The notes under the pieces are model-generated. The model made no database searches. It saw only the letters and a list, made by a program, of their open reading frames with translations, and was not told the origin of the DNA. Below are positions 5,625 through 6,439 of a stretch of 15,612 nt of DNA, piece after piece. Source of the stretch: a virus (taxonomy: Duplodnaviria > Heunggongvirae > Uroviricota > Caudoviricetes); IMG/VR virus record IMGVR_UViG_2778261247_000017, one strand, 5' to 3'. The translations under genes were made by a program, and so were the position numbers. Each line of letters opens with the position of its first letter. Within the stretch, counting starts at the first letter, position 1.

Positions 5625-5912
5625 TCACTGACTGCAATTTTTCGATCCAGGGTATTTCCTGAATGCCTTACCATTGGGCTGATGTAATCCCATTCCGGCA
5701 TGTGCCCGGCTGATGGTTTCGCGCATCTCCCCGAAATTATCCTGCCTTGCTGGTGGGCGTGCTGCCTTGTGGATACATTCCGCGCGACGTTTTGCCGCCT
5801 GTTCCCGTGCCTTGTCATCATTCGCCAGCATGATGACCTCAGCCCACCGCGCCGCCGCTCTCCGGTACAGACCACGCGCTTCCAGTGCTTCCGCTTTGCT
5901 GTCGTGAATCAT
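5625..5912 (-). CDS. PerC-family-like small transcriptional regulator
   Basis: ATG at 5910-5912 overlaps the upstream stop in an ATGA junction. N-terminal KAEALEARGLYRRAAARWAEV resembles the PerC-family signature as I remember it. Confidence 0.5.
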   Translation of the reverse strand: MIHDSKAEALEARGLYRRAAARWAEVIMLANDDKAREQAAKRRAECIHKAARPPARQDNFGEMRETISRAHAGMGLHQPNGKAFRKYPGSKNCSQ

Positions 5913-6439
5913 GCGCCTGTTTTCTCCTTTGCTGCCCGGCGCTGACGTTTGCGCTTCTCATTCAGCGCCATCAGCCGCGTTTCTGCGTCCTGTTGTTCCT
6001 GTGATGTCACCTCGCCGCACGGCTGGCCTTTCAGGTCGTAACGCGCCCCACCAGCAACCAGGGCGCGGTAATAGCGCGGAGACTGCGCATAAGATGCCAG
6101 CGTCGCACGTAATGCCCCAGGCCCAAATGCCAGCCCCCTGACGGCGAGATCCTGCATCAGGTCGTCGAATATCCCCACCTTAAGCGGCTTCGGTGCTTCC
6201 CGGCTGAATAAGTCAGGCCACAACTCAGTGAGGCGGTTAACGCGCCTGCGGTTTTTGCGCTGGCGTTTGGTCATATGCCGCCACGGTGTCGCCCCTGTGG
6301 GCTTCTGCTGCGCGTTCTGATTACCGGGCATCACTTTATATGCCGATGTGGTTTTATCCTGCTGTTGCGTCTCCTGTACCATTTTTGTGGCATACCGTAA
6401 TTTCTGTTGATGGTCAGCTTTTCCATGTGTACTTCTCAT
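5909..6439 (-). CDS. ProQ/FinO-domain RNA-binding protein
   Basis: WPDLFSREAPKPLKVGIFDDLMQDL ... RYDLKGQPCGEV aligns by eye with the E. coli ProQ N-terminal domain (FPHCFS...PLKIGIFQDL...RVDLDGNPCGEL). Basic Q/K/R-rich N-terminus. Start uncertain: ATG at 6439 has no SD, and internal ATGs exist. Confidence 0.8.
   Translation of the reverse strand: MRSTHGKADHQQKLRYATKMVQETQQQDKTTSAYKVMPGNQNAQQKPTGATPWRHMTKRQRKNRRRVNRLTELWPDLFSREAPKPLKVGIFDDLMQDLAVRGLAFGPGALRATLASYAQSPRYYRALVAGGARYDLKGQPCGEVTSQEQQDAETRLMALNEKRKRQRRAAKEKTGA

What the first reader, a model, noticed from the sequence alone, without database searches (positions are those of the whole stretch)
5625..6439. ProQ/FinO-domain protein paired with a PerC-like regulator inside a satellite
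The FinO-domain assignment is strong (PLKVGIFDDL ... RYDLKGQPCGEV). A mobile-element-encoded RNA chaperone coupled by an ATGA overlap to a PerC-like activator suggests a module acting on host or helper-phage RNAs. A dedicated terminator at 5589-5620 separates it from the next operon.
Basis: partly seen in the sequence, partly recalled or inferred. Interest (0 to 1): 0.45.

Follow-up and report, generated by a model that had tools for sequence, protein, structure and literature searches.

The report
FinO-type and PerC-type genes in a phage satellite

Summary
Window 5909-6439(-) encodes a ProQ/FinO-domain protein (Pfam 86.8 bits; the predicted fold matches FinO, RocC and NMB1681). Window 5625-5912(-) encodes a full-length PerC-family protein (110.5 bits) whose closest named relative is PchE. 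The two overlap by ATGA, and a strong hairpin follows at 5599-5622.

The host element is a 14.3-kb PICI-type satellite at tRNA-Thr (thrW) in E. coli APEC IMT5155. It has an integrase, AlpA, a primase with iteron origin, and no virion genes.

New points:
- The pair fills a fixed slot after ssb at the end of the replication operon.
- The two genes are separable cassettes. ProQ is followed by PerC or by unrelated 82-aa or 138-aa proteins, and PerC often follows ssb directly.
- This copy of proQ has a rearranged 5' end (13-nt deletion plus a 507-bp AT-rich replacement). RefSeq calls it frameshifted, yet an upstream ATG keeps 176 codons open and the domain is intact.
- Four of five RocC RNA-contact residues are kept.

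RefSeq annotates both genes. PerC in PICIs has been discussed since 2018, and ProQ/FinO in a PICI was listed in 2026. No RNA target is known. This is an ordinary new member of known kinds, of modest interest.

The parts
5909..6439 (-). 176-aa open frame for a ProQ/FinO-domain protein. Residues 1-49 are predicted disordered, a basic helix spans 58-73, the FinO core spans about 85-145, and a basic C-terminal helix spans 146-174. The start at 6439 lies in foreign inserted DNA and codons 1 to about 18 are out of the native frame.
5909..6426 (-). Native proQ CDS as annotated by PGAP ('frameshifted'). The native ATG at 6426 is out of frame with the domain because of a 13-nt deletion.
5625..5912 (-). 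PerC-family (PchE-like) 95-aa protein, translationally coupled to proQ by an ATGA overlap. The model is a small helical, TPR-like hairpin with no HTH.
5599..5622 (-). Intrinsic-terminator-type hairpin starting 3 nt after the perC stop codon. It marks the end of the operon. The U-tract is degraded in this allele.
6428..6934 (.). AT-rich (30-32% GC) replacement segment of about 507 bp that removed the 3' end of ssb, the ssb-proQ spacer and the native proQ translation-initiation region. It contains an unannotated 111-aa membrane ORF (6519-6854, minus strand) and a promoter-like site at 6777-6748(-).
6883..7140 (-). Remnant of the ssb gene that normally precedes proQ (PGAP: frameshifted; about 115-bp internal deletion).
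7420..7665 (.). Replication origin: at least 9 copies of the iteron GGTGAACAGT/ACTGTTCACC in both orientations, next to the primase gene.
7668..9482 (-). Primase/helicase (D5_N, DUF5906, Pox_D5; P4-family primase C-terminal domain) of the satellite's replication module.
13129..13326 (-). AlpA-family regulator (PF05930, 69.4 bits), the hallmark activator of Gram-negative PICIs.
14398..15612 (-). Tyrosine integrase next to tRNA-Thr (thrW), which lies just outside the window.
4451..5514 (-). Conserved downstream trio of 55 aa (5347-5514), 90 aa (5078-5350) and 175 aa (4451-4978; its N-terminus is HTH_17/TerS-like). This is the 'next operon' and a candidate packaging-redirection module. In many relatives it is separated from perC by 1.8-kb accessory insertions.

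Best explanation
The finding covers the last two cistrons of the long leftward operon of a PICI-type phage satellite. The element is 14.3 kb and sits at thrW in E. coli APEC IMT5155. The operon runs alpA, antA, icd-like, small genes, primase, ori, ssb, proQ-like, perC-like, terminator. The first cistron encodes a minimal FinO/FopA-architecture protein: a disordered N-terminus, a basic helix, the FinO core and a basic C-terminal helix, with no ProQ Tudor-like domain. It belongs to a clade specific to chromosomal islands and satellites. The second encodes a PchE-like PerC-family helical protein and is translated by coupling through the ATGA overlap. Shown here: family membership, fold, conservation of the 3'-end pocket residues, the fixed position after ssb, the conserved coupling and the conserved terminator. 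Inferred: after a helper phage triggers AlpA, the operon is transcribed. The FinO-domain protein then binds hairpin-plus-3'-tail structures (terminators of sRNAs, antisense RNAs or mRNA 3' ends) of the satellite, helper or host, changing their stability or pairing, as FinO, FopA, RocC and ProQ do. The PerC-like protein has no DNA-binding fold, so it probably modulates transcription through protein contacts. The two act as independent accessory cassettes sharing one slot, not as an obligate complex. In this copy the proQ 5' end is rearranged, so any product must start at the substitute ATG 6439 or at an internal Met such as M56. Confidence is about 0.95 for identity and context, about 0.65 that the protein binds structured RNA 3' ends, and 0.3 or less for any particular target; the single figure given (0.6) is for the statement as a whole.
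For: Pfam, NCBIfam and PHROG hits. A profile of the family matches the sequences of solved ProQ NTD (8e-18), FinO (3e-15), RocC (6e-13) and NMB1681. The AF2 model has pLDDT of about 87 or more over residues 60-170, and all 26 significant Foldseek PDB hits are FinO-domain structures (FinO rmsd 2.0 A over 102 columns; RocC TM about 0.8). The RocC RNA-contact residues G52, R75, Y87 and R97 map to G89, R111, Y123 and R133; Y123 and R133 are invariant and G89 nearly invariant in the subfamily alignment, while R111 is Cys in two of twelve aligned alleles (residue roles from PMC9674577). PICI hallmarks: integrase at tRNA-Thr, AlpA, primase with iterons, a 131-nt att-region duplication 14.3 kb apart, and no structural or lysis genes. 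Slot conservation holds across E. coli, Salmonella and Citrobacter elements, and divergent pairs (ProQ 45-52%, PerC about 50% identity) remain adjacent. Terminators directly after perC have different stem sequences in different clades. The literature describes PerC alleles as common PICI cargo (PMC6092414, PMC11773190) and lists ProQ/FinO and PerC as PICI accessory genes in Enterobacter (PMC13612085).
Against: No RNA partner was identified. Rfam finds nothing above threshold in the window and no convincing antisense promoter-terminator unit lies near the replication genes. The N-cap serine of FinO, ProQ and RocC is glycine here (G106), and the flanking lysines are absent. The proQ copy is flagged as a frameshifted pseudogene and has lost its native initiation region. 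The pair is not obligate. The terminator's U-tract is degraded in this allele. Operon structure and AlpA dependence are inferred from gene order and from other PICIs, not measured.
Confidence: 0.6

Rival explanations
1. In this particular element the proQ gene is a decaying pseudogene. The locus is the scar of a rearrangement that destroyed ssb and the start of proQ, so only perC, if anything, is functional.
For: PGAP marks proQ 'frameshifted' in IMT5155 and in ABU 83972. There is a 13-nt deletion relative to the consensus N-terminus MTKLTINRKPKGIYGT. The adjacent ssb is truncated, and a 507-bp AT-rich segment replaces the native spacer and ribosome-binding region. The perC terminator's U-tract is also degraded.
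Against: A substitute ATG at 6439 restores a 176-codon open frame with no internal stop, and the whole FinO domain is unaltered. The same variant is kept at 98-100% identity in 10 complete genomes, at two different chromosomal sites (thrW in IMT5155 and yicC-dinD in ABU 83972), and in 6 IMG/VR contigs. Natural alleles of 114 aa begin at the equivalent of M56, so the N-terminal 55 residues can be absent.
Confidence: 0.3
2. The FinO-domain protein is a dedicated copy-number or replication regulator of the satellite. It would work like FopA with Inc RNA and repZ, or FinO with FinP and traJ, chaperoning a satellite antisense RNA against the primase or ssb mRNA.
For: The gene is almost always the cistron directly after ssb in the replication module. 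Its architecture is FinO/FopA-like rather than ProQ-like. Element-encoded FinO proteins characterised so far act on one or two cis-encoded antisense RNAs (PMC9977716; PMC9674577). A plus-strand promoter-like site and strong terminator (12124-12227), antisense to the leftward operon, carries a hairpin identical in four elements with the pair.
Against: No antisense RNA gene was found opposite primase or ssb. Many PICIs with the same primase-ssb module lack proQ altogether, so it cannot be essential for replication control. Relatives also sit in non-replicative islands such as CP4-57-like and Dnd islands.
Confidence: 0.2
3. The pair is host-directed virulence or physiology cargo. PerC-like would reprogram host transcription (LEE-type or metabolic genes), and the FinO-like protein would compete with or extend the chromosomal ProQ regulon in the lysogenic state.
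For: PerC-family proteins regulate LEE1 and many metabolic and surface genes in EPEC (PMC5293775 title and abstract). EcCIMP1_025, 46% identical to the window PerC and carried by a PICI at the same thrW site, represses LEE1-lux (PMC11773190). The cassette has its own terminator and a distinct GC content of 60-63% against 45-50% nearby.
Against: No LEE was seen in the IMT5155 (avian ExPEC) DNA examined here (22 kb), and the rest of its genome was not checked. The PICI PerC-likes of EcCIEDL933 and EcCICFT073 are reported to have no effect on LEE1 fusions (citing text in PMC11773190), and the closest named relative of the window protein is PchE. In intact alleles proQ follows ssb by 36 nt with no room for an independent promoter, which suggests expression with the induced operon rather than in the lysogen.
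Confidence: 0.2

Closest known systems
FinO (F-like plasmids) and FopA (IncI plasmid pCol1B9)
   Same: FinO domain encoded by a mobile element. Same minimal architecture of core domain flanked by basic helices, with no Tudor-like C-terminal domain. The best structural match is FinO 1dvo (rmsd 2.0 A). The 3'-end pocket Tyr and Arg are conserved.
   Different: Only about 30-33% identical to FinO and below NCBIfam's FinO cut-off (66.7 against 136 bits). It is encoded on a phage satellite after ssb, not in a tra or leading region. No cognate antisense RNA is known. The N-cap Ser is replaced by Gly.
Chromosomal ProQ (E. coli/Salmonella) and RocC (Legionella)
   Same: The best sequence match among solved structures is the ProQ N-terminal domain (8e-18). 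The motif GxxRxDLxGxPCGE is shared with ProQ. The RocC-RNA complex gives the likely binding mode for terminator hairpins.
   Different: Below the ProQ equivalog cut-off (61.3 against 127 bits). It lacks the linker and the Tudor-like C-terminal domain. It is horizontally mobile and highly allelic (56-98% identity within E. coli).
PerC/Pch family (EPEC PerC; EHEC PchA-E; EcCIMP1_025)
   Same: Full-length PF06069 match. The invariant YRRAxxRW motif is present. It is carried by a PICI like the PerC-likes of EcCIEDL933, EcCICFT073 and EcCIMP1.
   Different: Closest to PchE. The PICI PerC-likes of EcCIEDL933 and EcCICFT073 are reported inactive on LEE1. It is 46% identical to the LEE-repressing EcCIMP1_025. 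Its target in a LEE-less ExPEC is unknown.
Gram-negative PICIs (EcCICFT073, EcCIEDL933, EcCIMP1)
   Same: Integrase, alpA and a primase with iteron origin, about 14 kb, no virion genes, accessory genes at the distal end. It uses the same thrW site, next to the vat/MarR island, as EcCIMP1.
   Different: Gene content differs from EcCIMP1, which has no proQ and different packaging candidates. No recognisable RppA/C or capsid genes were found: the 175-aa TerS-like protein has no sequence match to any solved structure, RppC included. Mobilisation is untested.

Membership tests
ProQ/FinO domain family (PF04352) | Profile match above the curated threshold across the whole domain | tested here: met
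   86.8 bits against a cut-off of 27, profile positions 5-108 of 109
ProQ/FinO domain family (PF04352) | FinO fold | tested here: met
   AF2 core pLDDT of about 87 or more over residues 60-170. All 26 significant Foldseek PDB hits are FinO, NMB1681, RocC or Lpp ProQ.
ProQ/FinO domain family (PF04352) | RNA 3'-end pocket (beta-turn Gly, Tyr, Arg) and N-cap motif (Ser/Thr cap plus Arg), as defined in the RocC-RocR structure | tested here: inconclusive
   G89, Y123, R133 and R111 are present. The N-cap Ser is replaced by G106 and the flanking Lys residues are absent.
ProQ/FinO domain family (PF04352) | Binds structured RNA (hairpin with 3' tail) | not testable with these tools
   Needs EMSA or CLIP
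FinO proper (NCBIfam NF010317) | Score at or above the curated cut-off; plasmid tra context with FinP | tested here: not met
   66.7 bits against 136. About 33% identity to plasmid FinO. Chromosomal satellite context.
ProQ proper (NCBIfam NF003434 equivalog) | Score at or above the cut-off; linker plus Tudor-like C-terminal domain | tested here: not met
   61.3 bits against 127. The model ends in a single helix at 146-174 with no second domain.
PerC family (PF06069) | Full-length profile match above threshold | tested here: met
   110.5 bits against 22.6, positions 1-89 of 90. PHROG 994, E = 3e-35.
PerC family (PF06069) | Activates the LEE1 (ler) promoter | not testable with these tools
   Literature only: the PICI PerC-likes of EcCIEDL933 and EcCICFT073 are reported inactive and EcCIMP1_025 represses (PMC11773190). 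The primary paper PMC543544 is not held.
PICI (Gram-negative phage-inducible chromosomal island) | Integrase at a specific att site, AlpA regulator, primase with adjacent iteron origin, about 10-15 kb, no phage structural or lysis genes | tested here: met
   Integrase 14398-15612 next to tRNA-Thr, att-region repeat 14.3 kb apart. AlpA PF05930. Primase plus at least 9 iterons. No structural or lysis hits in Pfam or PHROGs.
PICI (Gram-negative phage-inducible chromosomal island) | Induction, packaging and high-frequency transfer by a helper phage | not testable with these tools
   Experimental. A different PICI at the same site (EcCIMP1) is mobilised by phage Kapi1 (PMC11773190).
P4-like satellites | psu, delta and sid capsid-size and transactivation genes | tested here: not met
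   No such hits among the ORFs scanned with Pfam and PHROGs.

The most novel reading that the evidence does not exclude
PICI-type satellites carry their own clade of FinO-domain RNA chaperones. DNA similar to this gene is found in about a third of complete E. coli genomes. Expressed on helper-phage induction, such a protein could capture terminator-type 3' ends of helper-phage or satellite regulatory RNAs. This would add an RNA-level layer to satellite-helper conflict, with the translationally coupled downstream cassette (PerC, p82 or p138) as a variable effector.
Probability: 0.2. Interest if true: 0.6.

Novelty: new member of a known kind. Interest (0 to 1): 0.3.

Why it matters
FinO-domain proteins studied so far are either chromosomal global regulators (ProQ, RocC) or plasmid-borne specialists (FinO, FopA). 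The clade found here is confined to chromosomal islands and phage satellites. It has no close relatives in 50,697 phage records or on true plasmids. DNA similar to it occurs in 1,912 of 5,426 complete E. coli genomes, and it has no assigned RNA partner or phenotype. If it acts on helper-phage or host RNAs, it would connect RNA-chaperone biology with satellite-phage conflict and would give many E. coli strains an extra ProQ-like activity. For annotation, the case shows that a 'frameshifted' flag can hide an ORF rescued by a substitute start codon. It also shows that PerC-family genes in PICIs mark the end of the replication operon rather than being free-standing virulence genes.

Tried and rejected
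- The scan of one genome per species (genome contigs) with the ProQ alignment returned only one locus, E. ruysiae, so it gave no statistics. IMG/VR and the E. coli genome set were used instead.
- Rfam at E<=1 gave only weak miRNA-like hits on the iteron inverted repeats and a sub-threshold Thr-leader hit. No C4/CI-type or other sRNA family was found.
- PADLOC gave no defence-system assignment for ProQ, PerC, the DUF4747 pair or the downstream trio.
- The 175-aa downstream protein was tested as an RppA/RppC homologue. It has no sequence match to any solved structure, only an N-terminal HTH_17/TerS-like hit, so that question stays open.
- The 82-aa and 138-aa proteins that replace PerC were tested for PerC relationship. 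Neither gave a Pfam PerC hit at E<=1.
- The PerC AF2 model (pLDDT 73; 80-90 for residues 1-50) gave no significant PDB fold match, only weak TPR-like hits.
- Two attempts to locate EcCICFT073 in the CFT073 record, to see whether the experimentally studied island carries proQ, hit a lambdoid prophage and core genes instead. I abandoned this.
- Porter et al. 2005 (PMC543544) is not held. Statements about LEE1 activity of PICI PerC-likes rest on citing papers.
I repeated it with alignment A5.
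Full report
**Where the window comes from.** The window is 100% identical to the chromosome of E. coli APEC IMT5155, NZ_CP005930.1 around 3.21-3.23 Mb. RefSeq annotates the two genes of the finding there as 'ProQ/FINO family protein' and 'PerC family transcriptional regulator'.

**The host element.** On the minus strand the surrounding genes run as follows:
- tyrosine integrase, 14398-15612; tRNA-Thr (thrW) and proA lie just beyond the window end
- a hypothetical gene
- AlpA, 13129-13326 (PF05930, 69.4 bits)
- AntA/AntB, 12251-13051
- an Icd-like gene and several small PHROG-only genes
- DUF4222
- primase, 7668-9482

After the primase comes an intergenic region with at least 9 copies of the iteron GGTGAACAGT in both orientations (7420-7665). 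Then follow a small gene, an ssb remnant, the proQ-like and perC-like genes, a hairpin, three conserved small genes, a DUF4747 pair, and finally a truncated integrase and the MarR/vat island.

A 131-nt repeat of the region next to the tRNA lies 14.3 kb away, which delimits the element. Pfam and PHROGs detect no capsid, tail, terminase-large or lysis gene, and no psu, sid or delta gene. This fits a Gram-negative PICI-type satellite, not a P4-like one. Strain MP1 carries a different, experimentally mobilised PICI, EcCIMP1, at exactly this site next to the same MarR/vat remnant (PMC11773190).

**The observation.** Both ORFs are at the stated coordinates.
- The 176-aa product matches Pfam ProQ/FINO (E = 1.2e-24, 86.8 bits, residues 64-168).
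- The 95-aa product matches Pfam PerC end to end (E = 5e-32, 110.5 bits).
- perC's ATG overlaps proQ's stop codon as ATGA, sharing bases 5909-5912.
- A 10-bp hairpin with 7 G-C pairs starts 3 nt after the perC stop (5599-5622). Its dG is -21.9 kcal/mol, z = -4.3, and none of 200 shuffles folds as well.

**The FinO-domain protein.** A profile of 12 diverse relatives matches the sequences of solved ProQ NTD (8.4e-18), FinO (2.7e-15), RocC (5.8e-13) and NMB1681. The AlphaFold model (mean pLDDT 76) has these parts:
- residues 1-49 disordered
- a basic helix at 58-73
- a compact helical core with a beta-hairpin
- a long basic C-terminal helix at 146-174

All 26 significant Foldseek hits in the PDB are FinO-domain structures. 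FinO 1dvo aligns with rmsd 2.0 A over 102 columns, and RocC gives TM about 0.8.

I mapped the RocC residues that contact the RocR terminator (PMC9674577) through the HMMER alignment:
- G52 corresponds to G89
- R75 corresponds to R111
- Y87 corresponds to Y123
- R97 corresponds to R133

Y123 and R133 are invariant and G89 nearly invariant in the subfamily alignment, while R111 is Cys in two of the twelve aligned alleles. The N-cap S70 corresponds to G106, and the neighbouring lysines are missing. The 3'-end pocket is therefore intact and the hairpin-binding cap is altered.

The protein falls below the curated NCBIfam cut-offs for both FinO (66.7 against 136) and ProQ (61.3 against 127). It lacks ProQ's second domain. 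It is best described as a minimal FinO/FopA-like member of a separate clade.

**Distribution of that clade.** It is abundant and allelic in E. coli, Shigella, Salmonella and Citrobacter, with 56-98% identity among relatives. DNA similar to the pair occurs in 1,912 of 5,426 complete E. coli genomes, and for most of them only the proQ part matches. The clade has no close relative among 50,697 phage records; the best matches are 27-40% identical. On true plasmids identity is 40% or less, and FinO is about 33%.

**A damaged 5' end in this copy.** PGAP marks the gene 'frameshifted' in IMT5155 and in ABU 83972. Alignment with an intact allele (CFSAN018748) and with the family consensus MTKLTINRKPKGIYGTPQK shows a 13-nt deletion shortly after the native ATG at 6426.

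Upstream, homology to intact ssb-proQ loci stops at 6427. About 507 bp of AT-rich DNA (6428-6934, 30-32% GC) replaces the 124 nt that normally hold the end of ssb, the spacer and the ribosome-binding site. The ssb gene also has a 115-bp internal deletion.

The 176-codon frame listed by the ORF finder exists because an ATG inside the inserted DNA (6439) happens to read through the shifted stretch back into the native frame. The FinO domain itself is untouched.

This variant is kept at 98-100% identity in 10 complete genomes, at two different integration sites, and in six IMG/VR contigs. Natural 114-aa alleles begin at the equivalent of M56. A functional product is therefore possible but unproven.

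**The PerC-like protein.** The closest named relative is PchE (89% identity over a 54-aa fragment). The protein is 46% identical to EcCIMP1_025. That protein represses LEE1-lux in Citrobacter rodentium, whereas the PICI PerC-likes of EcCIEDL933 and EcCICFT073 were reported to have no effect on LEE1 fusions (PMC11773190).

There is no sequence match to any solved structure. The AlphaFold model is confident only for residues 1-50, where it shows three helices resembling a TPR-like hairpin. It has no helix-turn-helix and no significant fold match. Calling it an 'activator' is an annotation carried over from EPEC PerC, not something shown for this clade.

**Is the pair a module?** I anchored 80 IMG/VR loci on ProQ relatives and 80 on PerC relatives. 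I located neighbouring genes by tblastn and read annotated examples.

The constant feature is position. The slot lies directly after ssb, at the end of the replication module and before the packaging or capsid genes.

Downstream of ProQ, in the 80 ProQ-anchored loci:

| Downstream gene | Loci | Note |
|---|---|---|
| PerC | 55 | almost always the same ATGA overlap |
| unrelated 82-aa protein | 19 | capsid-forming PICIs |
| unrelated 138-aa protein, followed by a PerC remnant | 4 | ProQ allele P0067, the most widespread of those looked up (indexed in 4,005 collection blocks) |
| other | 2 | |

Neither substitute protein matches the PerC profile.

Upstream of PerC, in the 80 PerC-anchored loci:

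| Upstream gene | Loci | Note |
|---|---|---|
| ProQ | 53 | |
| ssb directly | 19 | as in the O157 island, |
| neither | 8 | |

Both samples are biased towards relatives of the window, so these counts are illustrative. Divergent pairs (ProQ 45-52% identity, PerC about 50%) are still adjacent. ProQ relatives also stand alone in CP4-57-like and Dnd-type islands.

The two genes are therefore frequent neighbours, translationally coupled when together, but separable. This argues against an obligate complex.

**The terminator.** In most alleles perC is followed within 1-3 nt by a canonical terminator, GGCCGGGAUUUUUCCCGGC followed by UUUUUUG. Other PerC clades carry hairpins with different stems (AGCCGGAG/CUCCGGCU; AACCGGG/CCCGGUU) followed by U-tracts. 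A transcription stop after perC is thus a conserved feature. In the window allele the U-tract has decayed.

In many relatives a 1.8-kb accessory insertion sits between this terminator and the conserved 55/90/175-aa trio. The terminator therefore also borders an accessory-gene hotspot.

**Mechanism.**
- Shown: the family, fold, pocket residues, slot, coupling and operon end.
- Inferred from the family: the protein binds hairpin-plus-3'-tail RNA ends and alters their stability or pairing. The roles of FinO, FopA, RocC and ProQ are summarised in PMC9977716 and PMC9674577.
- Unknown: the target RNAs.

Candidate ligands in the element are the operon's own 3' hairpin and a plus-strand unit. That unit has a promoter-like site at 12124-12152 and a strong terminator at 12202-12227. 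Its hairpin is identical in four elements, and it lies antisense to the leftward operon. Neither candidate was tested.

Rfam gives no known RNA family. The rival readings are a pseudogene in this copy, a replication-control specialist, or host-directed cargo. Each is listed with its refuting experiment.

**Novelty and score.** Both genes are annotated in RefSeq. PerC alleles in PICIs have been discussed since 2018 (PMC6092414). A 2026 survey lists ProQ/FinO and PerC among PICI accessory genes in Enterobacter (PMC13612085). My full-text searches found no functional study of a satellite-encoded FinO-domain protein.

The finding is a correct identification of new members of known families in a known kind of element. 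What this stage adds is the slot architecture, the separability of the two genes, the damaged 5' end, and the residue-level check. Interest is modest at 0.3. The widespread, uncharacterised island-specific FinO clade is the part worth an experiment.

Noticed in passing
window 6428-6934 (ORF 6519-6854, minus strand): An AT-rich (30-32% GC) segment of about 507 bp replaces the ssb 3' end and the ssb-proQ spacer. It carries an unannotated 111-aa ORF with predicted membrane helices and a promoter-like site at 6777-6748(-). Only two homologue clusters exist in 5.8 billion proteins (97% and 76% identity), so whether it is a real gene is open.
   Followed up: partly
window 7420-7665: At least 9 copies of the 10-nt iteron GGTGAACAGT/ACTGTTCACC in both orientations, directly downstream of the primase. 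This is the likely satellite replication origin. It also explains the weak Rfam miRNA-precursor hits there.
   Followed up: yes
window 10720-12258 (minus strand): A 512-codon open frame with no Pfam match. Only its last 73 codons are annotated (Icd-like; PHROG label 'transcriptional repressor'). The rest runs antisense to the plus-strand ylcI/ynfO-like gene (11273-11578) and a 66-aa gene (11636-11836). That is unusually long for a chance open frame, and it is unexplained.
   Followed up: partly
window 12124-12237 (plus strand): A promoter-like site (TTCACT-17-TATAAT) is followed by a strong terminator (11-bp stem with 7 G-C pairs, then CTCTTTTTGT), convergent with the end of antA/antB. The hairpin sequence is identical in four elements at different chromosomal sites and in E. 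ruysiae. It may be a small antisense RNA or the 3' end of the plus-strand unit.
   Followed up: partly
window 2153-3645 (minus strand): A DUF4747 protein (297 aa) and an overlapping 199-aa membrane protein sit at the accessory end of the satellite, where PICIs often carry defence genes. Neither has a PADLOC match. Other elements carry unrelated genes at this position (a 662-aa protein annotated as RNA-binding-domain-containing in ABU 83972; DUF3800 in CFSAN018748).
   Followed up: partly
window 960-1298 versus 15277-15612; L001 5961-6459 versus 20273-20783: A truncated second copy of the integrase N-terminus and of the att-proximal region (91-92% identity) marks tandem occupancy of thrW. The satellite inserted next to an older vat/MarR island. 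Strain MP1 has a different PICI (EcCIMP1) in the same arrangement.
   Followed up: yes
window 5700-6300: The proQ-perC cassette is 60-63% GC against 45-50% for neighbouring satellite genes and 30% for the adjacent insert. This suggests a distinct origin or strong compositional constraint from its Arg- and Ala-rich proteins.
   Followed up: no
L010-L014, L088-L091 (about 380 nt after the proQ stop): In the ProQ allele group P0067 (the most widespread of those looked up), the downstream 138-aa gene is followed by an uncalled PerC-like remnant (63-65% identity) and a PerC-type terminator. This suggests the 138-aa gene was inserted between proQ and perC.
   Followed up: partly
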